A program made the translations under genes and the position numbers. A stretch of 63,625 nt of DNA, counting the filler, from Stramenopiles sp. TOSAG23-6 (lineage: Eukaryota): NCBI GenBank assembly GCA_900128565.1. It is 9 parts of 9 records of this genome, joined end to end, with 100 filler letters (N's around TTAATTAATTAA, not from the genome) between each part and the next. Parts side by side here need not be neighbours in the genome. Positions count along the whole stretch, not along the records: positions 26,333 to 34,991 come from LT636428.1; 8 more parts are not named here. One strand, given 5' to 3'. Positions 8,697 through 59,021 of this stretch are shown one piece after another. Below the pieces are notes generated by a model. That model saw only the letters and a list, made by a program, of their open reading frames with translations. It was not told the DNA's origin and searched no databases. The first letter of the stretch is position 1, and every line of letters starts with the position of its first letter.

Positions 8697-8795
8697 NNNN
8701 NNNNNNNNNNNNNNNNNNNNNNNNNNNNNNNNNNNNNNNNTTAATTAATTAANNNNNNNNNNNNNNNNNNNNNNNNNNNNNNNNNNNNNNNNNNN
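8697..8795. other. artificial contig linker (N..TTAATTAATTAA..N)
   Basis: The same six-frame-stop linker recurs at 17466, 26233, 34992, 43745, 52494, 61228 and 62427. Confidence 0.97.
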
Positions 8796-9677
8796 NTTTT
8801 CATACGAAATTTTGTACCTAACAAATTTTTTTAGATTTTTTTTTTGAAATATTTTTCCAAAATACATAAAGCATTTCTTATTGCTTGTGAGCGCGGAAAT
8901 TTACCTGTTTTAGAGTACTTATCGAAAGAAGGATTAGACCCAACACATACTGCCGTGAAAGATTCAATATTTAGATGTGTCAAGGGTTCAAAACAAATCA
9001 ATTCAATAGTACATATAAAAGGTAAACCAACAATGCAGGCCAATGTGTCTCCTAGTATCGTGCCCATGTATGTTTTATTTTTTTTTCAACAAAAAAATCG
9101 ATTTTTTTTTTTATAAAAATTTTGTACCTAACAAATTTTAGTTTTTTTTTTTGTAATATTTTTCCAAAATACAGTGTCCAATGGCTTCTTAAGAAAGGAC
9201 TTGATGTAAATGCTTGTCATGAAAAAGCTAACCCTAATGAAAAATATGCAGATTTCAAAATGAATGGTCTCACTCCATTACATATTGGATGTGCTAAAGG
9301 CGACTACGGAACAGTCAGGGTACTTGTTCAAGGAGGAGCTGATGTTAATGTATGTTTTTATTTTTTTTTTTTTTTACCGAAAAAAAAAAAAATCGAATTT
9401 TTTTTTTTTTGGTAAAAAAATTTTGTACCTAACAAATGTAGTAATGTACTAAAAAAAATATTTTTTCACAATACATGCTGTTGCTCAAAATAATGTCCTT
9501 CCGTTACACTGTGCTTTAGCCACAGTCCAGTCATCTAAAGAAAGATTTGCGAGAACATCAGGAAATATGGATGAAACTAATAAACAAATATTTGCTAGAT
9601 CAATAGCTATAAAGGAAAAAATTATTGAACTACTATTATCAAAAGGGGCGCGAAAATCCTGGAGAAGAGACATATAA
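8796..9677 (+). CDS. ankyrin-repeat protein, 5'-partial, multi-exon
   Basis: ACERGNLPVLEYL, GLTPLHIGCAKG..GADVN|AVAQNNVLPLHCA; introns 9068-9174 (GT-AG) and 9350-9476 (GT-AT) restore the frame. Confidence 0.8.
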
Positions 9678-14682: not shown

Positions 14683-15832
14683 TTACTTTACCATACCGTT
14701 AGGCTTGCCCTTTGCTTGTTGAAGTATTACAATAATAGCAGTCATGTTGTCTTTCGATCCTAAGGCTAAGCATTTGTCTAATAATTTTTGAGGTACCATG
14801 TATTTTGGAACAATATTTCAAAAAAAAAAACTAAAATTTGTTAGGTACAAAATTTTTATAAAAAAAAAAATCGATTTTTTTGTAAAAAAAAAAAAATAAA
14901 AACATACATTTTCATTTCGGTTCCATTATTTATTTCAGCATTTAGAAATGATATACACTCTACATTAGTCATTACATCCCAAATGCCATCACACGCAATG
15001 ACTATGAATTTATCACTTGGTTGTCTTTTTACTGTGAGAACGTCGGGGATGTATTTTGGAAAAATATTTCAAAAAAAAAAATCTAAAAAAACTGTTAGGT
15101 ACAAAATTTCGTACGAAAAAAAAAATCAAATTTTCAAAAAAATAAAACATACATTGGTGAAACAGCTTGTGACTCAGGTTGTAAATCTGGTGCCTTGTAC
15201 ATAAAATCTCCGAGTGCTCGAGATACTGCCAAATCTCCATTCACGCGATTCATACTTACAGTTCCACCGGCTGCTACGATTCTTTTAGTTTCGATAGGGT
15301 TTTTTGGTTTATGGTCATACGAGAGGGGAAACGCATTTATTGTATTATCAGCATTTTGCCTACAAAGGACGGCACGAGAGTCGCCAACGTTGGCACAGAC
15401 AATATGGTCAGATGTTATATATGTTACACAAGCTGTTGTACCACTACAATCTGTACCAGTTTTTACACACGGTTGCTGTAAAAGCCATTTGTCCATAGAA
15501 ACCATCGTCTTTTCAAAAACAGTCGTGAAGACTTCTGGGGTAATTTCTGAGGAAGACTGGGGAGATTGGGTTTCTAGTATTTCACGTGTGGATATCTGAA
15601 ATTGACCTAATAAGCGTTTACCACTTTCCTTTGCAGCCCAATCCCCACCATGACCATCAAATACACCAAACATACAATTATTACCGTCTATACCAGTCTT
15701 GCAGATTTCTGCGTCTTCCATAGAAATCCGATAACCTTGCATTGAGGCTGAGGTAACATGAATTCCTCCCTCTGTATATATTTCTTCATGCACCTCCTTT
15801 GAAGTGATAGGCTTATCTAGAAAAGATCCCAT
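14683..15832 (-). CDS. protein phosphatase 2C (PPM family), 3 exons
   Basis: MGSFLDKP, SMQGYRISMEDA, VFDGHGG, ANVGDSR, LAVSRALGD, ACDGIWDV, GSKDNMTA; GT-AT introns 15049-15152 and 14798-14907. Confidence 0.95.
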
Positions 15833-17364: not shown

Positions 17365-17414
17365 GTAAGTTTTTTTTAATACGAAATTTCGTACCTAACC
17401 AAACCAAACCAAAC

Positions 17415-17447
<33 letters not shown>

Positions 17448-18182
17448 GAATCATTACAAATATTTNNNNNNNNNNNNNNNNNNNNNNNNNNNNNNNNNNN
17501 NNNNNNNNNTTAATTAATTAANNNNNNNNNNNNNNNNNNNNNNNNNNNNNNNNNNNNNNNNNNNNAAATTGTATTTTTTTATAAAGAAATATTTTATTTT
17601 TCATCAAATAGTCTTAAACATTGTTGTTTCAATTATTTTTCATCAAATAGTCTTAAACATTGTTGTTTCAATTATTTTTTATCAAATAGTCTTGAACATT
17701 GTTGTTTCAATTATTTTCGCACTTTTAGGAATACTATCATAATCTTTCTGCAATTGTATTAAATGTTTTACTTGTTTCGATTCAGTTCCATATTTAGCAG
17801 AAGCAATGATAATCTCACTTTTTAAATGATCAACATATAAATGAATTGTGAAAAATATTTTTTTTTTGTAAAAAAAAAAAATGTTAAGTATAAAATGGTC
17901 TACAAATTTTTTTTTCTACCAAAAAAAAATTTGAAAAAAAAAAAATGATAACAACGTACATGTCCCATTTCTTTTTCTATTCTATGCATTTCCTTATCTA
18001 ATTTATGTTTTTTTCTCGCCAATTTTCGAATTTCAACATGGTGAATATTTCGATGTTCTTCTACTGTATTTTGGAAAAATATTTCAAAAAAAATCTTCAA
18101 AAAATTTGTTAGGTACAAAATTTCGTACGAAAAAAAAATTCGAATTTTTTTTTTTTGAAATTTTCAAAAAAATAAAACATAC

Positions 18183-23560: not shown

Positions 23561-26076
23561 CTCTGGTGCTGTTGTTGCTGTTGTTGCTGCCGCTGAGGCT
23601 GCTGTTGCTGCTGCTGCCACTGCTGTTGTTGTTGCTGCTGCTGCTGCAGCTTCTTCAAGATAACAAGCATTGCCTGACAAAATAGAATGTTTTAGAGCTC
23701 GCGGATGAACCTGTGGGTCATTATCGTCAAAATCAGGAGTTATGATAACATCATCAGCACTAACATGTAAGATGGAATTATGAATCGAAACTGTTTTACA
23801 TGCATTAGATGCATTAGATGTAAACTGCACATGTATTTTGGAAAAATATTTCAAAAAAAATTCTAAAAGTTTTTTGTTAGGTACAAAATTTCGTATGAAA
23901 CCAAAAAAAAAAAACTTCAAATTTTCAAAAACAAATAAAACATACATAACCATCATTATCATTGTCTACAACATTGGAACTTTTGCATGCAATACAAGAA
24001 TCTACAAGAGTATATGTTCTAAATATGGTAAAAGGGTGGATAGTATCCTTATTATCATCACAGTCGCATAAACCTGTATAGGGCGCTTCATGTATTTTGG
24101 AAAAATATTTCAAAAAAAAAACACTTAAATTTGTTAGGTACAAAATTTTCAAAAAAAAAAAAATCGAATTTGAAAAAAACTGAAACATACAATCTTATTG
24201 TTATCAAAAACTTGTATTTTTGGTTCAGTTGTGGCATCTTCTTCTTCTTCTGTTGTTGTTGTTCCAGTTGTTGTTGTTGTTGCTTCTTCTGGTGTTGATA
24301 TAATAATAAGACATTTAATATCTTCATTTGGACACCCAGAGTAACCTTTATAAGGTAGTGAATCCAATTCTTTTTTATTTGGATAACCGTCATTATCTAC
24401 ATCAATTTGTTGAGATGGTAAAGTTCTACAAAACGAACCATTTGCTAAACATTTATAACAATGTTCTTTACATTCTGAAATATCCTCAATTCTTTTGACA
24501 AAATATTTAGGTTCAACTTCTTCGTCTGATTTAACAATCACCATTTGGTTGCTTCCAGGATATATAAACGGATCATTATCATCACAATCATACTTACCAT
24601 GGTACCTTGTTTGCTGTTGTTGAGGATTACCACACGCATTTATTGTGAAAAAGAATCGTTTGTTTTTGTAAAAAAAATGTTAGGTACGAAATTTCGTACG
24701 AAAAAAAAATCACTATGAACATTTTGTATTTTGAATATGCAATTTTCATAGTAAAAAAAATATAAATTCATGAAAAAAAACCAAAAAAAACAAAATATAA
24801 ATGTAAAACATGTATACAATAAATGATGAAAACAAACATATGGGTTATTATGAGTTGGATTGCGATGAGGATATCCATGTATTTTGGAAAAATATTTCAA
24901 AAAAAAATCTTAAAAAAGTTGTTAGGTACAAAATTTTTTTACCAAAAAAAAAAAAATTCACCCAAAAAAAAAATAAAACATACATCGTTATCAACGTCGT
25001 CTAATGCACATACTTGTCCATTTGCCATACATTTATACACGTCACAACTTGCTTCTGTCTTCTTCTTTTGTACACCGTCTTCTTCTTTTTCTCCACAATC
25101 AGTGATACTAGATGAATCGCAATCTTCTCTTGCCAAGAATTTTGTAAATGCTGCTACGTTTAATTTTGCCTCGACTTTAAAGTAACAAATATCACCACAA
25201 CATGTACAACCACATTGACCATCTTTTGTTATATCAATTGTACCATCGCAGTCATTATCAATATGGATTTTAGGAAAATATTTCAAAAAAAAAAAAAAAA
25301 AATCGTTAGGTACAAAATTTCGTATGAAAAAAAAAATCGAAATTGAAATCAAAACGTACTTTATCACCACATATTTCTTCTGCATCTGGATGAATATCTT
25401 TATCTTTGTCATCACAATCTTGAACAACAGGTAAATCTTCTTTTTTATAACCATCACAATCTTCATCATTTGTTTTTGTAGTTGTATATGTATTTTGAAA
25501 AAATATTTGAAAGAAAAAAAACTTACATTTGTTAGGTACAAAATTTTTATAAAAAACAAAAAACAAAAATTCAAGTTTGAAAAAACATAAAACATACATG
25601 GATTTTGATCATCACAATCAAAATCTTCTTCAGGACCCGTATACTTTGTCAATGTATATTCTTCCCATATATTTTGAAAAATATTTTTTTTTAAATATTT
25701 TTGTTAGGTACAACATTTCGTACGAAAAAAAAAANTGNAANTGNAAANTAATAAAATATACATGGATAATGAATTCCTTCATCTGTTGAAGTAGGAAGCA
25801 TGACGACACATGCTTTATCGCCTTGTTCTACATGTATTGTGAATTTATTTATTTATTTATTTTTTTGTTAGGTACAAAATTTCGTATGAAAAAAAAGTTT
25901 TTAAAAAAATTAAAAAAAAAAAAAAAAAAAAACATACAAATTCATCTCCATCATGATCTAAACAAAATTGATCATTATCCATACAACGATAATATTTACG
26001 TCGCAAATTATTGTATTGAAAATGTATTTAGGAAAAATATTTCACATTTTTACAGTTTTTACAAATTTGTTAGATA

Positions 26077-26125
<49 letters not shown>

Positions 26126-26232
26126 TTTTTTAGTTTTTTATAAAAATTTTTTTACCAAAAAAAAAAAAAAAATTTGAAAAAAAAAAAAAAAAAAAATAAA
26201 ACATACATTATACCTCACTACACTACCATCAG
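22094..26232 (-). CDS. multi-exon surface/secreted protein with MopE-like / thrombospondin-3-like Asp-rich repeats and Ala/Thr-rich spacer, 5'-partial
   Basis: DCDDKDKDIHPDAEEICGDK|IDNDCDG, DNDNDGFP, DDTDPEIYPGA repeats, repeated YKCxxNGQFC; about 9 family introns. Confidence 0.7.
22531..23650. repeat. degenerate trinucleotide (GCT/GTT/ACT)n array, coding Ala/Thr/Glu/Lys on the minus strand
   Basis: About 1.1 kb of NNT triplets, in frame with flanking Asp-rich exonic sequence on the minus strand. Confidence 0.9.
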
Positions 26233-26340
26233 NNNNNNNNNNNNNNNNNNNNNNNNNNNNNNNNNNNNNNNNNNNNTTAATTAATTAANNNNNNNNNNNN
26301 NNNNNNNNNNNNNNNNNNNNNNNNNNNNNNNNTGTTCTGA

Positions 26341-26456
26341 ACTGGGAGATTCGCAATCATTCGAACAATTCTTTCGCCTTTTACTAAAGAATTCCGTGGT
26401 TACGAATTGCTAATCCCACTGATCCCAATGTTTGGATATACAAACTCTCACGAGTT
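26341..26456 (+). ncRNA. U5: U5 spliceosomal snRNA
   Basis: Invariant loop 1 GCCTTTTAC (26376-26384) closed by an 8-bp stem AATTCTTT/AAAGAATT, then CCG, Sm-like AATGTTTGG (26427-26435) and 3' hairpin AACTC-TCAC-GAGTT. Confidence 0.92.
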
Positions 26457-26460
26457 ACTG

Positions 26461-26662
26461 ATACCTTCTCGGCCTTTTGGCTAAGATCAAGTGTAGTATC
26501 TGTTCTTATTAGAGTGAAATCTAATATTCAGGTCATAGACCTGTAATTTTTCACACTAATTTTTCTAGGATCGATATGGGCGAGCAGTCGTTTACGATAG
26601 CCCCCTAATCAAGCTTGTCTTTTGCATTGCACTATCGCTCTGTGACGAGCGCCCGAAAGGGC
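26461..26662 (+). ncRNA. U2: U2 spliceosomal snRNA
   Basis: ATACCTTCTCGGCCTTTTGGCTAAGATCAAGTGTAGTATCTGTTCTT 5' end, branch-pairing GTAGTA (26493-26498), stems IIa/IIb, Sm site AATTTTTC, loop IV ATTGCAC; an extra GCCC-GAAA-GGGC hairpin at 26651-26662 may lie outside the mature RNA. Confidence 0.97.
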
Positions 26663-26680
26663 ATCTGTTTTTCCTTCTCA

Positions 26681-26839
26681 AAACGTACATGGAGTGATTT
26701 GGAGGTGGTCAATATGGCCTCTAAATCCGAGTGAAGCAAGACCTGATCACTTTGGTTGTTTGTAAAGCTCGGTGCTGCTCTTCGGAGTATGCGGATTCTC
26801 AATTTTTTGTAGGGCTCTGCAGCGCGTGCGCTCTTAGCC
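26681..26839 (+). ncRNA. U1: variant U1 snRNA with altered 5'-splice-site recognition sequence
   Basis: 5' AAACGTACATGG (9/12 identical to ATACTTACCTGG); SL-I 11-bp stem with 10-nt loop GGTCAATATG (cf. GATCACGAAG); SL-II loop TGATCACTTT (cf. ATTGCACTYY); SL-III with UUCG; closing helix GAGT/ATTC; Sm site AATTTTTTG (26801-26809); terminal stem GGCT..AGCC. Confidence 0.88.
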
Positions 26840-26845
26840 ATCTGT

Positions 26846-26980
26846 ATCTTTGCGCTTGGGGCATTACCTTTACCATTGACGTTCGCTGAGGTTGGGTTAT
26901 TGCTAGTTGAAAACTACATTCCAAGTTCATGGTTCTTCCTAGTGTTGAACCTAATTTCTCAAACGTCTCTCACGAGATAC
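26846..26980 (+). ncRNA. U4: U4 spliceosomal snRNA
   Basis: 5' ATCTTTGCGCTTGGGGCA (U6 stem II partner), TGAG k-turn element, TTGCTAGTTGAAAACT (stem I), Sm-like AATTTCT, 3' hairpin TCTC-TCAC-GAGA. Confidence 0.92.
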
Positions 26981-26982
26981 TG

Positions 26983-27040
26983 ATGCCAATTACCTTTATG
27001 GTGTTGTGCTAAGATTTGTGTTTCTTAATTTCTAAGGAAA
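26983..27040 (+). ncRNA. candidate small Sm-site RNA of unknown class
   Basis: Starts after the same ACTG spacer as U2; hairpin, then ATTTGTG (27014-27020), then hairpin TTTCTTA/TAAGGAA. Structure by eye only. Confidence 0.35.
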
Positions 27041-27043
27041 ATG

Positions 27044-27093
27044 TAAGATACTGCTGGTGTAGTTTTAATGCAGTTCGATTCTGCTTTGTCTTA
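27044..27093 (+). ncRNA. minimal tRNA-like structure lacking anticodon arm
   Basis: 7-bp closing stem TAAGATA/TGTCTTA, hairpin CTGC-TGGT-GTAG, T-arm-like GCAG-TTCGATT-CTGC. Confidence 0.45.
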
Positions 27094-27466
27094 ATTATTC
27101 GTTTACAGTATTTTTTCTTTATTTTTTTTCATTTATGTAAAATGTTTTTGCTTCATTCCTTCCAATAACAAATTGATTGTTACTTGTAAAATAGTTGATT
27201 TTGCTTACTATGTCTTTTACAATGACGTTAATGAATATTTTTGACTTTTAATTATAAAAGAATAACGAATGGACTAATGATTAAAGAAAACAAAAATTGA
27301 AACAAATCTAAAAATATTGCTCATCAAAATTCAAATGAAAACTAAGTTGGGATTTTAATAAATGGTAATTTGAAACCAAAATTAATTTTCAAATTATACC
27401 CTACAACTCCATTTTATAATTTACAAAAAAGATTTATATATATATATAAAATATTTTTTATATTTT

Positions 27467-28816
27467 TTACAAGCTTTTTACACTCTTTAGCTCGATTGGA
27501 GCTTCCAAAGCTGCTTCACTTCGACATAGTAGAAGCATATTTATAACAAAAAGCAATTTAAAAGATATAGCTAACATAAGAATCATGCAAAGGTCTTCAA
27601 AGTATTTGTCTTCACTGCTGACAGTTTGATAATTAAATCCTAAATTCTGAAGGACTTGTTCACCAGTATACCCGTAGCAATACTTCACACTCTTGGAACA
27701 TCGATATCCACCAGCAGCACCAGCAACAGTGTTACAGTTGGGTTCACTGGGATTACAAGGCACAGCTCCTTCATAGGTTCTATCTAGAAATTCAAGATTA
27801 ATAAGAGTTCGAAGTCCATATGTGTGAGGGGTAATATAACAAAATATTCTAAGAGGCCAAATAATATCATCTCTTCCAATCATAATTCCGCCAAATAAAA
27901 ATGAAGCAAACCAAAAGTTCATAAATTGCATCATACCTAGTATAGGATTATGAAAAGTTATAGCAAGCGCCTGCGCAACACATTCAAAACTCCACAGTAA
28001 TGCTGCAAATATTAAAAATGCTTTCAAAAGAGAATTTTCATTCCAATTTCCAATTCCATAGCCAGAGATCCCACAGGATGAAAGTGCCAAAACAAGCATC
28101 ATTGGAAACTCAATAATGATATTAGATATAATATACGCCATCGCACTGCACATTCCATTTTTAATTTCCTGCTGAAGTATTCTGCCTTCAGAGTTGTAGG
28201 AATGGACAGCAACACATGCAAGTTGACAAGGAACACCAACATGCCATAACAGTACCCACATTTTATTCAGAATTTGGCTTTGTTTTCTATCACGGCTGGA
28301 CAAATATACAATGGCAAAAAAAGTCATCAAAAAAATAAAACCAATGGCTCTTCCTAGGTACACCATTGGATCCCTTTTTACAAGTAACCATCTCCGTCTA
28401 GTCAGAGTGAATACTTGCCTACATAGTGATACATTTGTTGAAGTATTTGGTTTCACAACGGTGGTGTCATATTCATAATTGTCGTTAGTAAGTTCAAGAT
28501 TGTTTTCAATGCTATATTTGTTCCATGCATCCACTGTATCCTCGACAACTGAAGGATCTGTAAAATCTTTATTGATCAACTCTATAAAGTACTCTGCCGG
28601 GTTAAGATTTGAAGGACCCTTCCTACCAATTATTTCACAATAATTCATTGTATCTGAAGGAGAACCACGGTAAGCAACTTTGCCATCCGCTAACATGATT
28701 ACATGATTTATTCCTAAATAAACCCGTGATGAAGGAGCGTGTATAGTTGCAAACATAATAATATTTTCTTTTTCAGCTAACTGTCTTAAAAACAATATTA
28801 TATTTGCAGCAGCGGC
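27467..28816 (-). CDS. ABCG (White-family) transporter, C-terminal part
   Basis: AAANII..L, ATIHAPSS (H-loop), LADGKVAYRG, NPAEYFIEL, ABC2 membrane domain; Walker A/B exons absent. Confidence 0.88.
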   Translation of the reverse strand, partial: AAAANIILFLRQLAEKENIIMFATIHAPSSRVYLGINHVIMLADGKVAYRGSPSDTMNYCEIIGRKGPSNLNPAEYFIELINKDFTDPSVVEDTVDAWNKYSIENNLELTNDNYEYDTTVVKPNTSTNVSLCRQVFTLTRRRWLLVKRDPMVYLGRAIGFIFLMTFFAIVYLSSRDRKQSQILNKMWVLLWHVGVPCQLACVAVHSYNSEGRILQQEIKNGMCSAMAYIISNIIIEFPMMLVLALSSCGISGYGIGNWNENSLLKAFLIFAALLWSFECVAQALAITFHNPILGMMQFMNFWFASFLFGGIMIGRDDIIWPLRIFCYITPHTYGLRTLINLEFLDRTYEGAVPCNPSEPNCNTVAGAAGGYRCSKSVKYCYGYTGEQVLQNLGFNYQTVSSEDKYFEDLCMILMLAISFKLLFVINMLLLCRSEAALEAPIELKSVKSL

Positions 28817-28922
28817 ATGTATTGTGAAAAAATATTTCAAAAAAAAAAAAAANTTAAATTTGTTAGGTACAAAATTTCGTACGATAAAAAAAACTTCGAA
28901 TTTGAAAAAAAATAAAACATAC

Positions 28923-29922
28923 ATGTATTTCCAGGAACAGACTTTAATTGGATAGACTTGAATCCAAAATATAATGATTCAGTACAGAAAAATTTGGTTG
29001 TTGTACTAGGTTCCAAAGATTTGACTGGACTATGGACTAAGAAATTCCAAATACATCGCGACATTTCGATATTACTTGTTTTACCAAGACAAGATTTGGC
29101 AGCAGATACCAGGGTAACTGGTATCATTTCTACATCACCAGAGATTGTTTTATTCTCTATTTTACTAAAGCAAGAAGGTGCTTTACCACTCAAAGTAAGA
29201 AGATTTAGTAGATGTTCTAAAGTATTGGATTCAAACTCAGGGTGAGCTTGAAAAGTCAAAATATTTCTTTCATTGAAAGTACCATGAACTGAGCAATGAG
29301 AATTCCCCCCAATATTTTTCAATCCTTGCCCAATTTTTGTAACAATATCATTATGTATATACAATAAGCTTAGATCATTGATGTTGTCACTCAAATTTGA
29401 TTTAGTCTCAAGACTTTTAATATATGTAGCGCCTTCAGAATTTAAGTGAAATTTTCTGTTTCCAAATTCCATTCCTTTACTGCTCTTCTCAACTTCACCA
29501 CCTAATGCTAAATTAATAATTTGGTGACCGAAACAGCTACCATACAGTTTATGTCCAAATGAGTGAAGTTCACGTATAGTGCGAATCATTTGTAAAATCC
29601 ATGGCGTATCTGTTTCATATGCAGCGTGGCTTGAACCAGTTATAAGGAAAGCATCAAAGCTATTAAAGTATCCAAAAGTTGGAAAGTGCCCTTTTGCACA
29701 ATCATACACAACAACAGAAAATTCAGGTTCAGAAACCCCATTTGTTTTACGCAATTGAATTGCAGCTTCCCGTCCTTGCTTCAACAATTGTTTAAAGTGT
29801 AAGGAATAATCAAGTGTAGACTTCGACGGGCATCGTAAGATAGCAAAACGTAGATGCTTTTGAGTGCCGCTGCTGGTGTCTTGCTCAACAGTATCACCGG
29901 GATAGGCAACAGATTTACTCAT
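28923..29922 (-). CDS. class I glutamine amidotransferase-like domain protein, first exon
   Basis: FLITGSSHAAY...PWI, GSCFGHQII..ALGG, FQAHPEF (Cys-His-Glu triad). Confidence 0.85.
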
Positions 29923-30477
29923 TATTTGTTGATACTATATCAACAGCTTCATATTTCATGGCTAATATTTGGATTCAAATTTGTAGACACTCTAACAATC
30001 TTTTATTACTAGCTAGTACGTAGATAATTATATAGTCTTGGGAATAGATTCCAATAGAATCTTTCAATGATTCTTTGAGATCTTTCGACTGATCGACAAA
30101 ATTTAGGTACAAAACTGGACAAAACTGCTTTTTCTAATAAGTGCTTTTTTTTGGTTTTGGAAAAATTATGATGAAATCGGCGGTCATTTTTCTGTATTAT
30201 CCTTCTCGACTTGTTCCTTCACGATTTGAGATTATCATTTCTCGGAATATTCTAGATTACCTTTCATTTGGTTGACTTTAAAACTGTCTTTCAAGAATAT
30301 TACTAGATCATTTCATTTATCTTCGGGTACCAGTATCTGTCGTAATTGTATAATTTTACGTCAGCTATTAGTATAAAGTTGTGTTGTGTACGCCATTAGT
30401 ATAAAGTTGTGTTGTACACTTTTTAGAATACAGAGAGTTAAGCGCACGTGTCGACTTCAAATTGATATAATCACACG

Positions 30478-30765
30478 ATGAATGTATCTAACTTTATAAC
30501 CGACATGGGTTGGTTTCGCTTGATAGTTTTACTTTGCATCGCTTGGTTGACAATGGTTTTGTGGAGAATGGCTAGCTCCACCACGACAGCTTCCGCTTCT
30601 CAACGAAAGAATACGAGAAAAGGAGTCAACTCAAAGAGATTACAGGGTTTCAGAAACAGCAGTGAGTTGTTTACAAAACGGAAGTTGGCCGTGTTTGAGG
30701 CAGCACGTTCGCGCTATAATTTAATTCATGGTTTAGATCCGAGTTCTAAGTTGAAAAAAATATAG
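30478..30765 (+). CDS. small single-pass membrane protein, hypothetical
   Basis: 95-aa ORF with one hydrophobic helix and basic tail, convergent with NSE2. Confidence 0.4.
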   Translation: MNVSNFITDMGWFRLIVLLCIAWLTMVLWRMASSTTTASASQRKNTRKGVNSKRLQGFRNSSELFTKRKLAVFEAARSRYNLIHGLDPSSKLKKI

Positions 30766-30881
30766 GGTTTGGAAGTCAGGTTTAAGTTAAAAAATTTATA
30801 GAATATCCTTATAAATAGCAGTGTTTATTATTTTTAGATACATAGTTTCTAAATAGTTCAGTCTAATATAAATCGAACATT

Positions 30882-31649
30882 TTATTCATCATCATCAGAG
30901 TCAATTTCTTCGTCAAATCTGCTTCGTTGGCGTTGCGACTGTGAACGGCGTCTATTACTTGCTTCAACTTCAAGTGCAGTGTCTTTCACTAGGGTACTTT
31001 TAGTTACTATTTGATTACAACCAGCCACTGGACATTTTACCGAGGCCTTATTCCTCAGCATATGATATATACCCTCCTTATTATAACTATGACCACACAA
31101 CTGGTTTTGTAGTGGTTCGCACCAATCGAGCATTGTAATAGGACACTTTCTTGCAGTGGTATCAGAAGAAGGCATTTCTTCAAAGTCATCGTCCTTATTC
31201 TTACCTGAACCTAATACACGACTAAGTTTTTGGCAATACTTATGGGATTGAATACGTTCATCTGTGATTTTTTCAATCTCTACTTCATAACGCTGTGTTT
31301 CGATAAGTTCAAAGTCAAAACGTTCTGGCATGTTTTCATCCTTTCCTTCTTCAAGCGATTTCCCTTTAAATTGAGCAAACTCCTGCTTCGCAAATTGCCG
31401 AGCTTTTAACCAACATTCGAGTTCTGAATAACATCGCGCATAATTATTGACGCAAGTTTTGAGTACTTCAATGTTCTGAGTTGCGGTGCTGGCGTCTTCT
31501 TCATCATTGTTAGATTTCAACTTGAGCATTTCCTTTACAAACAACAGAGTTTCCTCAAACTGTCTATCTATTTCCTCTTTCCTTTCTGCGATATGTTTTG
31601 ATAATATCTTTATCGTATTATCTATCGCATGAACTCCATAACCTACCAT
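30882..31649 (-). CDS. NSE2: E3 SUMO ligase NSE2/MMS21 (SP-RING)
   Basis: N-terminal helical region, then CPIT....EPLQNQLCGHSY..EGI....KCPVAGC. Confidence 0.8.
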   Translation of the reverse strand: MVGYGVHAIDNTIKILSKHIAERKEEIDRQFEETLLFVKEMLKLKSNNDEEDASTATQNIEVLKTCVNNYARCYSELECWLKARQFAKQEFAQFKGKSLEEGKDENMPERFDFELIETQRYEVEIEKITDERIQSHKYCQKLSRVLGSGKNKDDDFEEMPSSDTTARKCPITMLDWCEPLQNQLCGHSYNKEGIYHMLRNKASVKCPVAGCNQIVTKSTLVKDTALEVEASNRRRSQSQRQRSRFDEEIDSDDDE

Positions 31650-31898
31650 TCTGAAGCAAACGCACCCAATTTAGAAGTCAATTTGAATAAGAATACTTCG
31701 AAGTTCGAACGACGACGATGAAAAAGGATGCGAGAAAAAAAATTGTCAAAAAAAAACAAGAAGCCGAAGCGGAAGTCAAAATTTTGAATCACGATGATGC
31801 CGAATGGAATGCAGTCTAAAACAAAGGAATTCAGAATTATAGTAGCTATATAGTAATTGACTTACGTTTGATACTTTTGGAACTGTATTAACAGAGCA

Positions 31899-33205
31899 AT
31901 GAAGTTGCCGTTTAGATTTCATAAAAGAACTTTCTTAAATAATACTGTGTACTGTGTTTTCATTTCTTTTGTTATATTAATTTTACGTACAAAGGTTTCG
32001 GATGTTCGCAAAATGTGGACTTCACTCAAAAGCAAAGTAGACAACACTTTCTTGAGCGTTGGTCTGAATGACCAAGATGAAAAAGATCCTATTTCTACCC
32101 CTGATTTACTTTTAAAGCACATACAATCTGCAGAATTGGAGCTTTTTGCTTTAGAGGAAGCAATAAATTACAAAAGAATGTATATAAAAAATGTAAAAAT
32201 GGCATATGCAAATCTCCACGGAAACTCAGGTACTTTAGTTGACAAAGAGAAAAAACCTCATATTTTTTCGAGTTCCCTTGAGAACAATATTACCTTTGAC
32301 TATTTAAATCATGCGAGGAATATAAAATCCCACATAAAAATGAAAGATTCACCTGAAAGTGAAGCAGCTATAGTGGAACAANNNNNNNNNNNNNNNNNNN
32401 NNNNNNNNNNNNNNNNNNNNNNNNNNNNNNNNNNNNNNNNNNNNNNNNNNNNNNNNNNNNNNNNNNNNNNNNNNNTCTAATACCTGAAGGCGAACAGAAC
32501 GTATGGCATATTCCATGTGGAGAAAATATATATAGTATTAATTGGTATGGTAATATTAGTGGTTGTTCGCCACAACGCTGTAGTAGGAGAATTCGTGACC
32601 ACGTGGCAAGTTTGAAGGAATGCAAATCTGCTATCAAATATATATCAACTGCAATGAATAATTTATTTCATAGAGGTGGCTCAACATCTCTTGTAGCAAA
32701 TACACCAGAACGCCTTGGACCTATGGGCCATAAGTTAATTCAAACGCTTATTAATCGAACACGAAATATCATTATAAAGGATTATGATCTGACGTCTCCT
32801 TTGTACAATAGCGGTTCGTTATTATCTCGACTAACTGCAGAGTTTGAAGATGATGAGTGGGAAGCAGCACCAAATGGATATGCATACTGGAACGCACATG
32901 TTGATAAGGCAAATATAGCTTCGTATGACTATTCTGCATTGTTATATCTTAATAGCCAAATAGATGATATAGACCAAGTCATTTTGAACGATGACTTTCA
33001 AAATTTTTCTGGTGGAAAATTCGTATTCATAGATGCTAAAGTGAATCATATTGTTGTACCAACTCCAGGACGTTTGGTAACTTTTACGTCTGGACTTGAA
33101 AATTTACATCGAGTGAGAGAAGTCACTCGTGGAACTCGTTTTGTTCTTGCCATGTGGTTCACTTGTGATAAATCTCGAGAATATTCTGATTCTGATTCTT
33201 TGTAA
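31899..33205 (+). CDS. OGFOD3: 2OG-Fe(II) oxygenase, OGFOD3/prolyl-hydroxylase-like (spans scaffold gap)
   Basis: YWNAHVDK, YDYSALLYLN, FSGGKFVF, FTSGLENLHRV, GTRFVLAMWFTCD; N gap at 32382-32475. Confidence 0.75.
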
Positions 33206-33483
33206 CTTTTTACATTATTGGTACTAGTTATTTGTATGTCAAAAATTGAAAAATTAAAAATTAAAATCGATTTTAGCGTTACGATTTCTGCTCTTTAGGT
33301 ACCAATTTTTTGGTAGGGATATATCGCGGATATTATGTGATCGGGGCTGCTATATTTTCCTAGGAGAAAATGCAATTTCCTAAGAAGGTTCCAAGGGTTC
33401 CACATTTCCTAATTGAGATTTAATTATGCATCATCAGATATATCCGAAACTACATATATCACGGAACACACATTGCATGTAAG

Positions 33484-34103
33484 ATGATTAAGTCGAAGAA
33501 AAAAACTAGCGGTTGGGAAAAGCTCAAGAATCAAAAGGGTAAGGCTAAAAAGGCTTTGACTTTGATTGGGTCTTATCGGAAAAGAAACGCTAACACGTTA
33601 GCAATGGTTTCAGTTTCAGCAAAAGAAGGTGCCAAGTATGACAACATATTCGAGGCTGCCAAAGAAGGCGATACACCAGCAGTTCGATATATGTACATGG
33701 ATGAAGGCAAGTCATGTAAAGATCCTGACGAGTTGAAAGGAATGACGTACGTAACTCACGAAACCTTGTATCAAAATTGTAAATCTTGGAGGAGATTTCT
33801 CAGATATCTCTATACTGGACTTTCTTCCTGCACAAGAGTGTCATCATTTAAACTGCCCTTATTTCTACATTTTCTTACACATTTTCACAACATTATATAT
33901 TCACTTACTATAGACCTCTTCACTGGGCTTCTACCGGAGGATGGCACACAACTGTTCGTTGGTTGTTAAAACAAGATGGAGTTGACGCTTTAGCGGAAGA
34001 TTTCCGTGGTTTCACCGCTCTCGATATAGCTAAACGTCGGGGTTACAGTCTCGTTGTTGGTGTAATTGATACACACTTATCGGGAGCTAAGCGAGGCTTC
34101 TGA
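33484..34103 (+). CDS. small ankyrin-repeat protein, 2 exons
   Basis: IFEAAKEGD..KGMT|PLHWASTGG..GFTALDIA after removal of GT-AG intron 33747-33913. Confidence 0.8.
33747..33913 (+). other. conventional GT-AG intron without the repeat-family motifs (167 nt)
   Basis: AC|GTACGT...CACTTACTATAG|A restores the ankyrin TPLH motif. Confidence 0.8.
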
Positions 34104-34276
34104 GTCCCCCCATTCCCACTCCTCCCCCAAATTAAGATGTATACCGTTCGTGTAATTTGACACTCATTTACCTGGAAATAAGCAACATTTTTGATTGAAG
34201 AATGAAAACAAAAATTGAATAAAATGAAGAATCTTGTTTTAATTAATTCTTAATTGTGAATTCTTTTGACTCTTAC

Positions 34277-34383
34277 ATCATGAATTCCTTTGGCTATTAA
34301 TCATGAATTCCTTTGGCTATCAATCATGGATTCCTTTGGATATTAATCATGAATTCCTTTGGCTATTAATCATGAATTCCTTT
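34277..34383. repeat. 23-nt tandem repeat, about 4.5 copies, overlapping the PDI stop codon
   Basis: Unit ATCATGAATTCCTTTGGCTATTA. Confidence 0.85.
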
Positions 34384-34923
34384 AACTCCTTGTAAATCAA
34401 ACTTATGTTTTGCATTTTTCTTAATAAATTTTGCAAAAGCAAGCACAGTAAAATCAGAGTCATATATTTTTGGTGTTTTTTCCTTCTCCGTGTCTCCACC
34501 AGGAGCAAAGTATATTGTCGGATACCCTCGACAATCATACAGAGTTGGTACGTCATTTGTAGTTGCATCAATTCTTGCAATGATTACAGATTGTATCGAA
34601 TCGAATTTCTTTGCTAGTTCTATCCACAAAATATCAAGAGTTTTGCAATATTTACACCCGGGTGCATATAAGTGAATAAGAACGTCTTTTCTTGGGTCAT
34701 TTACAATTTTCGCGAATGTTGCACCTGTAAGTTCAATAATTCCATGCTTAATCTCTAATGAAGTTTCAGTCTTAATTTGAGAATAAACATATGGTTCTTC
34801 TTTACCTTTTAAAATTTTATCAAGCCATGGTTGAAGTGTAAGAGTTGCATTTAAATTCTGATTCAAACTACTCATATCTTTAAATGCATCAGATGAATGT
34901 TTTAAAATATATTTTTTTCCCAA
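34366..34923 (-). CDS. protein disulfide-isomerase, C-terminal thioredoxin domain, 5'-partial
   Basis: KDVLIHLYAPGCKYCK, IARIDATTND, GYPTIYF. Confidence 0.85.
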   Translation of the reverse strand: MGKKYILKHSSDAFKDMSSLNQNLNATLTLQPWLDKILKGKEEPYVYSQIKTETSLEIKHGIIELTGATFAKIVNDPRKDVLIHLYAPGCKYCKTLDILWIELAKKFDSIQSVIIARIDATTNDVPTLYDCRGYPTIYFAPGGDTEKEKTPKIYDSDFTVLAFAKFIKKNAKHKFDLQGVKGIHD

Positions 34924-35182
34924 ACATTTTTTTTTAAAAAAAAAAAAAAAAATTTTTCACAAAATATTTTGCTGTCAATTTAATATTTTGGNNNNNNNNN
35001 NNNNNNNNNNNNNNNNNNNNNNNNNNNNNNNNNNNTTAATTAATTAANNNNNNNNNNNNNNNNNNNNNNNNNNNNNNNNNNNNNNNNNNNNAAAAATATT
35101 TCAAAAAAAAAAACTAAAATTTGTTAGGTACAAAATTTCGTATGAAAAATAAATTCGTAATTGAAAAAAAAATAAAACATAC

Positions 35183-42309: not shown

Positions 42310-43650
42310 ATGTCCAGAACATCTATTTGGACAATCAATCATGCTACAATCATCACCAACGAATGGCGGTCGACATTGACAACTACCAAATCCATCACAT
42401 ATCCCATGTGATTCTCCTTTATTTGTTGCTGAACATTCACTTTTTCGTTGTGTATATTCATAATATTGTGCAACATCAAGATCAAAACGTCCTGTCAAGG
42501 AATCATACATTTTTTTACCAGAACTACAACAATGATTGCACTTATGCTCTTGAGAATATTCATCATAATAACAAAAGTCACCTGGGCATGTTGTATTACT
42601 ACAATCTGAACCATAATAACCATCATTACAATAACAATAGCCTAATTTACATTCACCATGTAGTTTGGAAAAATATTTCAAAAAAAATTTAAAAAAATTT
42701 GTTAGGTACAAAATTGTTTTACCAAAAAAAAAAAATTAAACTCGAAATTGAAAAAAAATAAAACGTACATGCAATGAACAATTATGTGGACAAATATTCG
42801 TGTTATACTGCCATAAATCTCCCATTATTGTAAAATCAATAGTACGATTAAATAATGTATTGTGAAAAATATTTCAAAAAAAAAACTAAAATTTGTTAGG
42901 TACGAAATTTCGTATGAAAAAAATCAATTTCAAAATTTAAAAAGAAAATGAAAACGTACAAGGTATCGTTGGTTCTTTTACTGCTATTCCTCCAAACATC
43001 ATTATGATCTCATATTGTGCAGAATATACAGATTTCATATTCCATCGTTGTTCTGGTTGTTTATATAATAATTTAAACGGTAAATCATTTCGTTTATCAG
43101 CACGATCTCGACATCCATCCCAACCAGCTCTTTGTCGTCGTGGCTGATGGATAAACACATCTTTCCCACCACTTATATCAGTCAAATTCCAACCTCTTGT
43201 AGGTTGACCCCACACTGACATTGATGTTAATCTATCTTTTTCTCCAGCCATACATGTATTATGAAAAAATATTATTATTATTTTTTACAGTTAGGTATAC
43301 AATGTTAACCTTAATACAATTTTTTGAAAAAAAAAATCGTTAGGTACAAAATTTCGTACGAAAAAAAAAATTGAAAAATAAAAATAAAACATACATGTAT
43401 CATCCCAGCAGCTATATAAATCCAAATCATTATCACATTTTGTGACACCTTCAAGTCTAGCACGTTCAAGACAACAATTTATTTTGGAAAAATATTTCAA
43501 AAAAAAAAAACTTAAATCTGTTAGGTACAAAATTTTTATAAAAAAAAAAATTCGATTTTTTTGTAAAAAAATAAAACATACATCGCCTACATCAGCGACA
43601 ATACCTGGAGTATCTGGATCTTTTTTACAACAAGGATGAAATGTGAACAA
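42310..43650 (-). CDS. EGF-like / kelch-type extracellular protein, internal exons
   Basis: IMMFGG, CPHNCSLH|GECKLGYCYCNDGYYGSDCS, GICDGFGSCQCRPPFVGDDCS..CPNRCSGH; GT-AT intron 42658-42768. Confidence 0.75.
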
Positions 43651-43878
43651 ATATATATATTTTTTATTTTTGTTATTAGGTACAAAATTTTTTTACGAAA
43701 AAAAAACCAAAAAAAACAAAAAAAAAAAAAAAAAAAAATAAAAANNNNNNNNNNNNNNNNNNNNNNNNNNNNNNNNNNNNNNNNNNNNTTAATTAATTAA
43801 NNNNNNNNNNNNNNNNNNNNNNNNNNNNNNNNNNNNNNNNNNNNCAAAATTTCGTACGAAAAAAAATAAATTCGAAAT

Positions 43879-51045: not shown

Positions 51046-52435
51046 CTAATTCCAAAATGTTGCAGTATATTCTGGTGGATCGCCACGGGCTTCCATTTCC
51101 TTTTCAAACGCATGATCGCCTAGCCAATTCATTTTTGCTGCTATATCTAATGGCAGTAAACCTTCATATTGAGCTGCAAAGAAACGTGCCAAGGTCATTC
51201 GGAATTCATTAGCGGCTATATAGTGGTAAACAGATATGCTTGTACCAATTGTTTTTGTAGTTGCGTCAGATTTTACAGGGTATATTTCACCTGCACCAGT
51301 TGGCATCACCGTATGTAATCTTGGAACTATCAAGGGATATTTCTTACCGCAACTTTCAGGTGAAACAATTTTAACCACAGCATCAGCTTTTTCAACTTCA
51401 TGTATTTTGGAAAAATATTTCAAAAATATTTCGTTAGGTACAAAATTTCGTACGAAAAATAAATTCGAAATTGAAAAAAAAATAAAACGTACATTATGTT
51501 TTTGATCAGCAGAACAATTTTTATCATTTGTATTCTGTGAATCGATCATTAATATTCGCAATTGTTTTATTGCACACCAACGAAGTTCAAAACTTTGAGA
51601 TCCTACTGATCCCATCAATGAAGAAAGTAATGCACCATATTTTATTTTACAACAATGTAGATTTTCTAAAAATTCATTTTCACATGCAAGCATATCTTTG
51701 TTTAAAGAAGGTGTTAATTTGCCAATGACTAATAATAGCAATTTGTTCCACAAATTGCGACTCATTTGAGAATTTCTCATTCGATGTTCGATTATATGCA
51801 TTTATTTTGGAAAAATATTTGAAAAAAAAAACTTAAATTCGTTAGGTACAAAATTTCGTACGCAAAAATAAATTCGATTTTTCTGTTAAAAAAAAATAAA
51901 ACATACGAATCCTCAAGAGAAATTTGAGGAACTGCACAGGATTTTTTCGAGGAGCCAACTGCAGCAGTTACTACACCAACAGCTTTTTCTAAGAGCGTTG
52001 TTCCCATCCCTTTGCTACTACTGACATGTCCGCTATTTAGTTGATCTTGCTGTCCAACACATTTATTTTGGAAAAATATTTGAAAAAAAAATCATTAGGT
52101 ACAAAATTTTTATAAAAAAAAAATTCGAATTTGAAAAAAAATAAAACATACATAATGATCGAGCAAGCAATCGAAGACCTAACACACATAAACTTTCGGA
52201 TTTGCGTGACAATAAAGAAGCCCAAGTTTTTTTCACTGTTGCTTTTATCGAATGTAAAATATATGCGGGAACATTTCGGAGGAATATTTTTATCACTGGA
52301 ATTATATCTATATCGGAAAGATTTGAATCTGAAATATAGTTCAAAATTTCTACAGAACTTATGACAATGTTTGACCTCAAACCATTAATTGTGTCATGTT
52401 TATCTATGCTATTTTGCGTAGTACCATTAAAACTA
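51046..52435 (-). CDS. hypothetical helical (HEAT-like) protein, 3' exons
   Basis: Minus-strand ORF pieces separated by four family introns. Confidence 0.5.

Positions 52436-54799: not shown

Positions 54800-54837
<38 letters not shown>

Positions 54838-58983: not shown

Positions 58984-59021
<38 letters not shown>

What the first reader, a model, noticed from the sequence alone, without database searches (positions are those of the whole stretch)
26341..26980. U5-U2-U1v-U4 packed head-to-tail with 4-18 nt spacers: possible polycistronic snRNA operon
Seen: four Sm-class snRNAs on one strand within 640 nt. Gaps are about 4 nt (U5-U2), 18 nt (U2 extra hairpin-U1v) and 6 nt (U1v-U4). Each unit ends in a hairpin followed by ACTG or ATCTG (26457, 26663, 26840, 26979), and U5 and U4 share the terminal hairpin CTC-TCAC-GAG. 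Established: these snRNAs normally each have an upstream PSE/USE promoter tens of nt long and need a 5' cap, and there is no room for such promoters here. U6, the Pol III/LSm member, is absent. Inference: one precursor cleaved at hairpin+WCTG signals, or promoters embedded in the upstream gene.
Basis: partly seen in the sequence, partly recalled or inferred. Interest (0 to 1): 0.85.

Follow-up and report, generated by a model that had tools for sequence, protein, structure and literature searches.

The report
Four snRNA genes packed end-to-end
An uncultured marine microbe carries its U5, U2, U1 and U4 splicing-RNA genes head to tail with almost no DNA between them, which suggests, without yet proving, that they are made as one long RNA and cut apart, something not described for these RNAs.

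Summary
Rfam finds U5 (26341-26458), U2 (26461-26657) and U4 (26846-26977) above the curated thresholds. It finds a full-length U1 (26681-26840) below threshold (54.1 vs 69.5 bits). All lie on the + strand, with gaps of 4, 18 and 6 nt. Each unit ends in a short hairpin followed at once by A(U)CUG.

Two corrections. The window is a chain of ~8.6-kb contigs joined by N linkers, and U5 starts 8 nt after a contig start, so the DNA upstream of U5 is unknown. The "U1 variant" matches this organism's introns: its three departures from the U1 consensus pair with the local 5' splice site (A-U|GUAYGUUUU).

No shared promoter-like motif lies upstream of U2, U1 or U4. A metagenomic locus with the same order U5-U2-U1 has ~240-nt spacers with their own flanking boxes.

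Best reading (about 0.5): one precursor from a promoter upstream of the contig, cut at the hairpin-A(U)CUG sites. Embedded promoters and a silent copy array remain open.

In passing: the introns are a near-uniform family that seems to end in AU rather than AG.

The parts
26333..26340 (+). First 8 nt of the contig (TGTTCTGA). They end in TCTG plus one base directly before U5, like the junctions inside the cluster. This hints at a further unit upstream, beyond the contig start.
   Evidence: N44-linker-N44 ends at 26332.
26341..26460 (+). U5 snRNA gene, including the terminal hairpin 26443-26456 (5-bp stem, loop UCAC) and ACUG at 26457-26460.
   Evidence: Rfam RF00020 at 26341-26458, 76.8 bits against 40. 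Fold.
26461..26667 (+). U2 snRNA gene. It carries an extra 3' hairpin at 26651-26662 (4-bp stem, GAAA loop), followed by AUCUG at 26663-26667.
   Evidence: Rfam RF00004 at 26461-26657, 138.8 bits against 46. Fold.
26668..26680 (+). The only true spacer, 13 nt and U/C-rich. It holds one copy of the box WCCUUYWY (26672-26679).
26681..26844 (+). U1 snRNA gene. Its 5' end is AAACGUACAUGG, its Sm site is at 26802-26810, stem-loop 4 is at 26813-26839, and AUCUG follows at 26840-26844.
   Evidence: Rfam RF00003 at 26681-26840, 54.1 bits (below 69.5), full model, E 1.8e-12. The 5' end is the complement of the local 5' splice-site consensus. Fold.
26846..26982 (+). U4 snRNA gene, including the terminal hairpin 26965-26978 (loop UCAC) and ACUG at 26979-26982.
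   Evidence: Rfam RF00015 at 26846-26977, 76.0 bits against 46. Fold. The 16-mer is shared with the U5 end.
26463..26470 (+). Box WCCUUYWY 3 nt after the U5 CUG. It lies inside the U2 5' end.
26866..26873 (+). Box WCCUUYWY 22 nt after the U1 CUG. It lies inside the U4 5' stem-loop.
26992..26999 (+). Box WCCUUYWY 10 nt after the U4 CUG, in the flank.
26983..27466 (.). Flank between U4 and the stop codon of the convergent ABC-transporter ORF on the - strand. No further RNA family, no tRNA and no significant fold were found here.
   Evidence: (scan to 27300), (z -1.08 for 26983-27090).

Best explanation
The four Sm-class spliceosomal RNA genes form one transcription unit. RNA polymerase II (inferred) starts upstream of the contig start, possibly in front of at least one more unit. 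It reads through U5, U2, U1 and U4 and stops in the ~480-nt flank before the convergent ABC-transporter gene. The precursor is cut by an endonuclease that recognises the terminal hairpin plus A(U)CUG, perhaps helped by a pyrimidine box (WCCUUYWY) 3-22 nt downstream. At U5/U2 one cut would make both the 3' end of the upstream RNA and the 5' end of the next. At U1/U4 the same holds within 1 nt. U1 would need 13 more nt trimmed from its 5' side. The downstream RNAs would then begin with a 5' monophosphate, not a co-transcriptional m7G/TMG cap.

What is shown: the genes, their order and spacing, the recurrent junction module, the lack of a shared upstream motif, and the fit of U1 to the organism's introns.

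What is inferred: co-transcription, the polymerase, the cleavage sites, the role of the box and the cap status.
For: 1. Four full-length snRNA genes lie on one strand with gaps of 4, 18 and 6 nt.

2. Every unit ends in a hairpin followed on the next base by A(U)CUG. That word occurs once per 253 nt in the window. The 8 known nt before U5 end the same way.

3. The U5 and U4 ends share a 16-mer (2 matches, 0.01 expected). They also share a 21-nt repeat, 19 of 21 identical, that runs 5 nt past the CUG into whatever follows. So the similarity is not confined to the mature RNA.

4. U2 has an added GNRA hairpin that supplies the same ending. The U2 of locus L007 shows no such addition by eye.

5. 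No shared positioned motif lies in -80..-1 of U2, U1 and U4: 0 hits at 5 of 5 settings. The same script on L007, which has the same order U5-U2-U1 but spacers of about 240 nt, finds a 3' box after 3 of 3 genes (12 hits against 0.13 in shuffles). It also finds an upstream box at about -70, clear before U5 and U2 only; the U1 window aligned at -72 is a poor match, and a similar word lies further upstream of U1.

6. WCCUUYWY follows each CUG within 3-22 nt: 4 copies on the + strand of about 0.66 kb, against 63 on both strands of the 63.6-kb window.

7. The U1 copy is adapted to this genome's introns. The genes are therefore of the working type, not decayed relics.

8. Three seawater metagenome runs of one other study hold 0.76-0.87 of the sampled words of 26333-27100, and three metatranscriptome runs of one further study hold 0.24-0.37.

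9. Precedent: Giardia ncRNAs, snRNAs included, are made from mono- and di-cistronic precursors cut at a 3' motif (PMC3510501; abstract, section 10 and passages read).
Against: No RNA was examined.

The region where the promoter should be is not in the assembly.

Sm-class snRNAs normally acquire an m7G cap at initiation and a TMG cap later. A cleavage product would lack both, and the downstream product of 3'-end cleavage is normally degraded (established knowledge, recalled).

The junction motifs were found and tested on the same four sites, so they are post hoc. Two of the four boxes lie in functionally constrained parts of U2 and U4. The U2 one is also present in L007, which has long spacers, so it did not evolve for this purpose.

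No close relative of the cluster was found, so nothing can be said from conservation: 0 hits for the three-anchor pattern in metagenome contigs, and none of the 25 U5-core loci is tightly packed.

The 0.87 share in the best independent DNA run leaves about 10 of 75 words unaccounted for. These could be the junction words.

The assembly contains at least one contig with perfect 2,523-nt inverted ends, so assembly or amplification artefacts do exist in it.
Confidence: 0.5

Rival explanations
1. Each gene is transcribed on its own. The promoter elements of U2, U1 and U4 lie inside the preceding snRNA gene or inside the gene itself. Initiation at the mapped 5' ends gives normally capped RNAs. The hairpin-A(U)CUG module is only the usual 3'-end signal of each gene.
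For: Classical biology of Sm-class snRNAs requires a cap acquired at initiation (recalled). U5 carries a 4-nt insertion (UAUA) relative to the Rfam model (alignment). By my count, this falls about 25 nt before the U2 start, where a TATA-like element would sit. A hairpin followed by AUCUG also follows U5 in metagenomic loci L002 and L016, which have long spacers, so the ending alone does not imply a polycistron. Trypanosomatid snRNA genes show that unusual extragenic or tRNA-borne promoters exist (PMC4950102, listing abstract only).
Against: No motif is shared at a similar distance upstream of U2, U1 and U4. By eye, no TATA-like word lies near -25 to -30 of U1 or U4. The three upstream regions are three different, functionally constrained RNAs. 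No tRNA or tRNA-like gene is present. Runs of 5-6 T inside U2 and U1 and in the spacer argue against RNA polymerase III with internal promoters (termination rule recalled). Read-through from each upstream gene would still have to be handled within 0-18 nt.
Confidence: 0.22
2. The array is not the working source of these RNAs. It is either a silent copy made by reverse transcription with template switching between mature snRNAs, or a joint created by whole-genome amplification or assembly. The expressed genes lie elsewhere with normal spacing.
For: The units are joined almost exactly end to end at what look like mature termini, as in chimeric retro-copies known from mammals (recalled). The contig breaks 8 nt before U5. 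The assembly holds a contig with perfect 2,523-nt inverted ends. The whole genome is not held, so other copies cannot be excluded. The source runs are very small.
Against: All four genes score as full-length, intact family members. A 13-nt spacer between U2 and U1 and the lack of any poly(A) tail after U4 do not fit simple retro-copying. Amplification chimeras typically join sequences in inverted order, not four different genes in direct order at their exact boundaries (recalled). The same order U5-U2-U1 occurs with long spacers in locus L007, and U4 followed by U5 occurs in L017. This fits descent from an ordinary cluster by loss of spacers.
Confidence: 0.13

Closest known systems
Giardia lamblia mono- and di-cistronic ncRNA/snRNA precursors cut at a conserved 12-nt 3' motif (Hudson et al. 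2012, PMC3510501; abstract, section 10 and passages read)
   Same: Small nuclear and nucleolar RNAs lie a few nucleotides from the next gene. A short sequence motif at or just after the mature 3' end marks the processing site. Precursors spanning two genes were shown there by RT-PCR. The 12 nt starting at the window's spacer box (26672-26683) fit 11 of the 12 positions of the published consensus, by my own comparison by eye.
   Different: Giardia has pairs, not four Sm-class spliceosomal RNAs in a row. Its motif is single-stranded and not tied to a hairpin-A(U)CUG. Its U1 and U2 were reported as mostly capped. The organisms are unrelated, and the motif likeness may be chance. Nothing here has been shown at the RNA level.
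Polycistronic snoRNA clusters of plants, yeast and trypanosomes (recalled; listing only)
   Same: Several small stable RNAs are made from one Pol II precursor and released by nucleases. The mature RNAs are uncapped.
   Different: Those are snoRNAs, protected by snoRNP proteins and released by RNase III cuts in longer spacers plus exonuclease trimming. Here the RNAs are Sm-class spliceosomal RNAs, the spacers are 0-13 nt, and the hairpins (4-5 bp) are too short for RNase III.
Ordinary linked or tandem snRNA gene clusters, each gene with its own promoter. Examples: locus L007 here, and the SL RNA-5S-U2 repeat of Diplonema papillatum (PMC10161547, passages read)
   Same: Several snRNA genes lie on one strand. 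L007 has the same order U5-U2-U1.
   Different: Spacers there are hundreds of nt, with a recurring 3' box after all three genes and an upstream box that is clear before U5 and U2. Here the spacers are 0-13 nt and no such boxes are seen.
Uncapped spliceosomal snRNAs of Trichomonas vaginalis (PMC2588526, abstract in the listing only)
   Same: This shows that spliceosomal snRNAs can work without a cap and with probable 5' monophosphates, which the cleavage model predicts here.
   Different: The abstract seen reports no polycistronic arrangement, and I recall none. The cap status here is unknown.
Herpesvirus saimiri HSUR-microRNA transcripts processed by Integrator (recalled; not looked up)
   Same: An Sm-class RNA is co-transcribed with further small RNAs placed directly after its 3' end, before the 3' box.
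   Different: There the downstream products are microRNA hairpins, not further snRNAs, and the system is viral.

Membership tests
U5 snRNA (RF00020) | Covariance-model score at or above the curated threshold, with the invariant loop I. | tested here: met
   76.8 bits against 40, model 1-117. The loop sequence is present.
U2 snRNA (RF00004) | Covariance-model score at or above threshold, over the full length. | tested here: met
   138.8 bits against 46, model 1-192.
U4 snRNA (RF00015) | Covariance-model score at or above threshold, over the full length. | tested here: met
   76.0 bits against 46, model 1-138. Pairing with U6 could not be tested, because no U6 is in the window.
U1 snRNA (RF00003) | Covariance-model score at or above the curated threshold. 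| tested here: not met
   54.1 bits against 69.5. The alignment is full-length (1-166) with E 1.8e-12 for the 1.1-kb stretch.
U1 snRNA (RF00003) | A 5' end complementary to the organism's 5' splice sites. | tested here: met
   The reverse complement of nt 1-12 is CCAUGUACGUUU. At 35 unique 5' splice sites found through a downstream branch-like motif, the positions not used for selection read: -2 A in 25 of 35, -1 U in 30 of 35, +7 U in 34 of 35, +8 U in 35 of 35. Positions +1 to +6 were fixed by the search.
U1 snRNA (RF00003) | Four stem-loops and an Sm site before the last stem-loop. | tested here: met
   The Rfam alignment places all four helices and the Sm site AAUUUUUUG. Stem-loop 4 folds.
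Polycistronic small-RNA transcription unit | An RNA molecule that spans two or more of the genes. | not testable with these tools
Shares of words in RNA runs do not say which parts are held.
Polycistronic small-RNA transcription unit | One promoter upstream of the first gene and none between the genes. | tested here: inconclusive
   No shared motif between the genes (with a positive control). The region upstream of U5 is missing.
Polycistronic small-RNA transcription unit | A recurrent processing signal at every junction. | tested here: met
   Hairpin plus A(U)CUG at 4 of 4 unit ends, with a WCCUUYWY box 3-22 nt after each. This shows recurrence only; function is untested.
Classical Pol II snRNA gene (upstream PSE-type element plus 3' box) | A conserved upstream element at a fixed distance, and a 3' box within about 20 nt after the RNA. 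| tested here: not met
   No common upstream element for U2, U1 and U4. L007 shows the 3' box after 3 of 3 genes and an upstream box that is clear before U5 and U2 only. A candidate 3' box (WCCUUYWY) exists but is defined post hoc.

The most novel reading that the evidence does not exclude
A marine protist makes its Sm-class spliceosomal RNAs (U5, U2, U1, U4 and probably at least one more upstream) from one polycistronic precursor. A single cut after a hairpin-A(U)CUG module creates the 3' end of one snRNA and the uncapped 5' end of the next. The same organism has a re-tuned splicing system: a U1 whose 5' arm has changed at three positions together with the 5' splice sites, and a near-uniform, transposon-like intron family that ends in AU instead of AG.
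Probability: 0.4. Interest if true: 0.85.

Novelty: new variant of a known kind. Interest (0 to 1): 0.7.

Why it matters
Textbook snRNA biogenesis ties each Sm-class snRNA to its own promoter, to a cap acquired at initiation and to a 3' box. If four of the five spliceosomal RNAs are cut from one precursor, three things follow. Caps would be dispensable, or added in another way, for U2, U1 and U4. Equal transcription of the four genes would be built into the gene layout. And a new endonucleolytic signal, a hairpin plus A(U)CUG, would be open to study.

The locus also gives a clean natural example of U1 and 5' splice sites changing together. It points to a genome in which most introns seem not to end in AG. 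That touches the open questions of how the 3' splice site is chosen and how transposon-like introns spread.

If instead each gene proves to have an embedded promoter, it would be an extreme case of promoter elements written inside functional RNA genes.

Tried and rejected
1. Read evidence. The look-up of sequencing runs listed DNA and RNA holders. Nothing was laid, so expression, junction-spanning reads, read depth and a tandem array could not be tested. Runs with shares under 0.2 (X14-X20) are not used as evidence of anything.

2. Whole genome. None is held, so other snRNA copies, U6 and copy number could not be searched.

3. Relatives.
- A three-anchor pattern (U5 loop, U2 stem-loop IV loop, U4 centre, with gaps of +/-15 nt) found 0 metagenome contigs.
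- A 33-nt U5 core pattern found 25 loci, none closely related outside the core and none tightly packed.
- A U1-specific pattern found 0 in genome contigs and 0 in viral contigs.
- As a result, no covariation or conservation test of the junction motifs was possible.

4. A fifth RNA after U4. No Rfam family at E up to 10 (to 27300). The fold of 26983-27090 is not unusual (z -1.08, 29 of 200 shuffles as good). A T-arm-like hairpin near 27069-27083 is not part of a tRNA (ARAGORN found 0). Rejected. A likeness of the first bases after U4 to U12 was considered from memory and dropped, because Rfam gave no U12 hit.

5. The downstream flank as a decayed second copy of the cluster. The short repeats found have inconsistent offsets (346-595 nt). 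Rejected.

6. The bacterial-type promoter and terminator scan is not applicable to a eukaryote and is ignored.

7. Lineage. The Atlas search with the ABC-transporter ORF gave only the family (ABC-2 membrane domain) and no useful taxon. The lineage was left undetermined.

8. A first ORF-continuity test of the intron 3' ends, using 60-nt flanks, was too permissive (25 of 33 passed, but so did many other positions). It was replaced by the splice-and-translate test.

9. Searches were syntax errors and were corrected.

10. Earlier findings of this scan: none for this place or these words.

11. Literature. Four searches for a polycistronic or co-transcribed Sm-class snRNA cluster and one on snRNA gene clusters found none beyond Giardia. 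Supplementary files were not seen.
Full report
WHAT IS THERE

The window is not one piece of genome. It contains 18 runs of 44 N, arranged in pairs around the 12-mer TTAATTAATTAA. These cut the window into pieces of about 8.6 kb in falling order of size, i.e. contigs strung together (linker read). The contig that holds the finding runs from 26333 to 34991.

Rfam at gathering threshold finds three families in the whole window, all on the + strand of that contig's first 650 nt:
- U5 at 26341-26458, 76.8 bits (threshold 40).
- U2 at 26461-26657, 138.8 bits (threshold 46).
- U4 at 26846-26977, 76.0 bits (threshold 46).

A permissive scan of 26200-27300 adds a full-length U1 at 26681-26840. It scores 54.1 bits, below the curated 69.5, with E 1.8e-12. 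No U6 reaches threshold in the window.

So are the four positions of ACTG/ATCTG: 26457, 26663, 26840 and 26979. Each is the first base after a terminal hairpin. A(T)CTG occurs once per 253 nt in the window.

The U5 and U4 endings share a 16-mer (2 matches, 0.01 expected). They also share a 21-nt repeat, 19 of 21 identical, that continues 5 nt beyond the CUG.

U2 carries an extra GNRA-looped hairpin after stem-loop IV, which gives it the same kind of ending.

The 8 nt before U5, all that the contig offers, end in TCTG plus one base. This is the same layout as the U1/U4 junction, so the array probably continues upstream.

IS THE U1 REAL?

Its 5' end (AAACGUACAUGG) differs from the Rfam consensus at positions 2, 5 and 9. 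While testing whether this fits the organism's introns, I found that the window is full of a stereotyped element of roughly 80-140 nt:
- It begins GTAYGTTTT.
- It holds a branch-like TACCTAAC.
- It ends ...CCAAAATACAT.

I counted each element once, with the second arm of a perfect inverted repeat masked. There are 56 branch-like motifs. Of these, 36 have GTAYGT within 110 nt upstream, giving 35 unique 5' sites.

At the positions that the search did not fix, the sites read:
- A at -2 in 25 of 35.
- U at -1 in 30 of 35.
- U at +7 in 34 of 35.
- U at +8 in 35 of 35.
- U at +9 in 34 of 35.

The reverse complement of U1 nt 1-12 is CCAUGUACGUUU. So all three departures of this U1 from the consensus pair with the local splice-site consensus: A9 with U at -1, G5 with C or U at +4, and A2 with U at +7.

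GTAAGT, the classical site, is rare: 17 on both strands against about 43 expected from base composition.

This U1 is therefore of the type the organism's introns match. A recent silent copy would share that property.

HOW MIGHT THE CLUSTER BE EXPRESSED?

For U2, U1 and U4 there is no room for an upstream promoter outside the preceding RNA gene. The 80 nt before the three starts share no positioned word at any of five settings.

The method does work on a control. Metagenomic locus L007 carries U5, U2 and U1 in the same order and orientation, but with spacers of about 240 nt. There the script finds CCAAAAACAAG 10-17 nt after all three genes (12 hits against 0.13 in shuffles). It also finds GCC(W)GATATCG near -70 before U5 and U2. 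The U1 window aligned at that distance is a poor match, and a similar word lies further upstream of U1.

L011 repeats U5 followed by U2 at about 300 nt, and L017 has U4 followed by U5 at 165 nt. An ordinary cluster in this cyclic order thus exists in other marine eukaryotes. The window's version looks like the same layout with the spacers, and whatever they carried, removed.

In the window, each CUG is followed within 3-22 nt by WCCUUYWY. There are 4 copies on the + strand of the cluster, against 63 on both strands of the whole window (composite pattern). Two of the four lie inside U2 and U4, and the motif was defined on these same sites, so it is only a lead.

Runs of five or six T inside U2 and U1 and in the spacer argue against RNA polymerase III. 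There is no tRNA-like element. Nothing after U4 has the look of a further RNA.

The reading I think most likely (about 0.5) is one precursor, started upstream of the contig and cut at the hairpin-A(U)CUG modules.

The nearest published system is Giardia. There, ncRNAs including snRNAs come from mono- and di-cistronic precursors cut at a 12-nt 3' motif (PMC3510501; abstract, section 10 and passages read). The 12 nt starting at the window's spacer box (26672-26683) fit 11 of the 12 consensus positions by eye, which may be chance.

Trichomonas shows that snRNAs can lack caps (PMC2588526, listing abstract).

Four literature searches found no polycistronic Sm-class snRNA cluster.

WHAT IS NOT SHOWN

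No RNA data were examined. Several seawater metagenome runs (three from one study at 0.76-0.87) and metatranscriptome runs (three from one study at 0.24-0.37) hold part of 26333-27100. The shares cannot be turned into statements about junctions. The roughly 10 of 75 words missing from the best independent DNA run could even be the junction words.

The whole genome is not held, so other copies of these genes cannot be excluded.

No close relative of the locus was found, so the junction motifs have no comparative support.

The assembly contains a contig with perfect 2,523-nt inverted ends, which warns of amplification or assembly artefacts. Such artefacts do not normally place four different genes in direct order at their exact boundaries.

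RIVALS

Embedded promoters with independent, capped transcripts: about 0.22. For this reading: a 4-nt UAUA insertion in U5, which by my count falls about 25 nt before the U2 start, and the same hairpin-AUCUG ending after U5 in the long-spacer loci L002 and L016.

A silent retro-copied array or an artefact: about 0.13. For this reading: the end-to-end joins and the contig break. Against it: the 13-nt spacer, the lack of a poly(A) tail, the intact genes, and the presence of most of the stretch in runs of another study.

The remaining odds go to things I have not thought of.

VERDICT

The arrangement is a new variant of known kinds: linked snRNA genes, and polycistronic small-RNA units. It deserves an RNA-level test.

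IN PASSING: THE INTRONS

Removing the stereotyped elements from the G of GTAYGT to the T of the final ...ACAT joins open reading frames:
- A PP2C phosphatase at 14700-15300 on the - strand: 2 of 2 junctions fall inside one ORF, which grows from 75 to 128 aa.
- A gene at 51300-52300 on the - strand: 3 of 3 junctions, and the ORF grows from 167 to 236 aa.
- In the two longer regions the longest ORF did not grow. It spanned 2 of 6 and 1 of 10 junctions, with several introns missed or mis-set by the automatic rule.

By eye, the same rule rebuilds an EGF-type cysteine motif and DNDCDG-type repeats across four consecutive introns.

With the 5' cut at the canonical |GU, the last two intron letters are AU in 28 of 35, AG in 3, other in 3, and not found in 1. 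Registers shifted by one or two bases give the same length and cannot be told apart from DNA alone. RNA-seq is needed.

Uniform, transposon-like introns and non-canonical ends are known from Amoebophrya (PMC7789003, passages read) and from diplonemids (PMC12621601, passages read). I found no report of a GU-AU majority in the one search aimed at it.

Noticed in passing
Whole window, e.g. 14804-14907(-), 15049-15152(-), 25263-25359(-), 42658-42768(-): About 50 copies of a near-uniform intron family of roughly 80-140 nt. The layout is |GUAYGUUUUA, then a U run, then (C)GUACGAAAUUUUGUACCUAAC, then a U run, then GAAAUAUUUUUCCAAAAUACAU|. The copies resemble transposon-born 'introner' families. With the 5' cut at GU, the last two letters are AU in 28 of 35, AG in 3. 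Removing them by this rule joins ORFs in PP2C and another gene. AG dinucleotides 8-14 nt after the branch motif would have to be skipped.
   Followed up: partly
Window 26681-26692 compared with the intron 5' ends: U1 and the 5' splice sites have changed together. U1 positions 2, 5 and 9 differ from the consensus, and each pairs with the local consensus (U at +7, Y at +4, U at -1). This gives up to 12-13 contiguous base pairs.
   Followed up: yes
Window 8697-8796, 17466-17565, 26233-26332, 34992-35091, 43745-43844, 52494-52593, 61228-61327, 62427-62526: The window is a chain of contigs in falling order of size, joined by N44-TTAATTAATTAA-N44 linkers. Neighbouring pieces are therefore not neighbours in the genome.
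   Followed up: yes
Window 52594-55116 and 58705-61227: One contig has perfect 2,523-nt inverted ends, 100% complementary. This is either an amplification or assembly chimera of the kind seen in single-cell genomes, or a real long inverted repeat. It double-counts the elements in that contig.
   Followed up: partly
L007 1856-2802 (- strand): A GC-richer marine eukaryote has U5, U2 and U1 in the same order with spacers of about 240 nt. The 3' box CCAAAAACAAG follows all three genes, and an upstream GCC(W)GATATCG lies near -70 of U5 and U2. Its U1 5' end is canonical.
   Followed up: partly
L002 (57 and 1020), L016, L018, L001, L017: Other U5 arrangements in metagenomes. L002 and L016 hold tandem U5 repeats of 963-969 nt. 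L018 holds a 1,280-nt repeat with U5 and two tRNAs. L001 has U5 and U6 divergent. L017 has U4 followed by U5 at 165 nt. In L002 and L016 the U5 hairpin is also followed by AUCUG.
   Followed up: no
Window 27467-29934 (- strand): The ABC-transporter ORF starts in the middle of its ATPase domain, right after an intron-like element at about 28820-28922. The ORF upstream of that element is an unrelated glutamine-amidotransferase-like protein. Either exons are missing or the piece is rearranged.
   Followed up: no
Window 26863-26872 and 26989-26998: The 10-mer ATTACCTTTA occurs in the U4 5' stem-loop and again 7 nt after the U4 end. It overlaps two of the WCCUUYWY boxes.
   Followed up: no
Window 17392-17430 (+): A short (CCAAA)n-like run follows a branch-like motif and a long T run. 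Its meaning is unknown.
   Followed up: no
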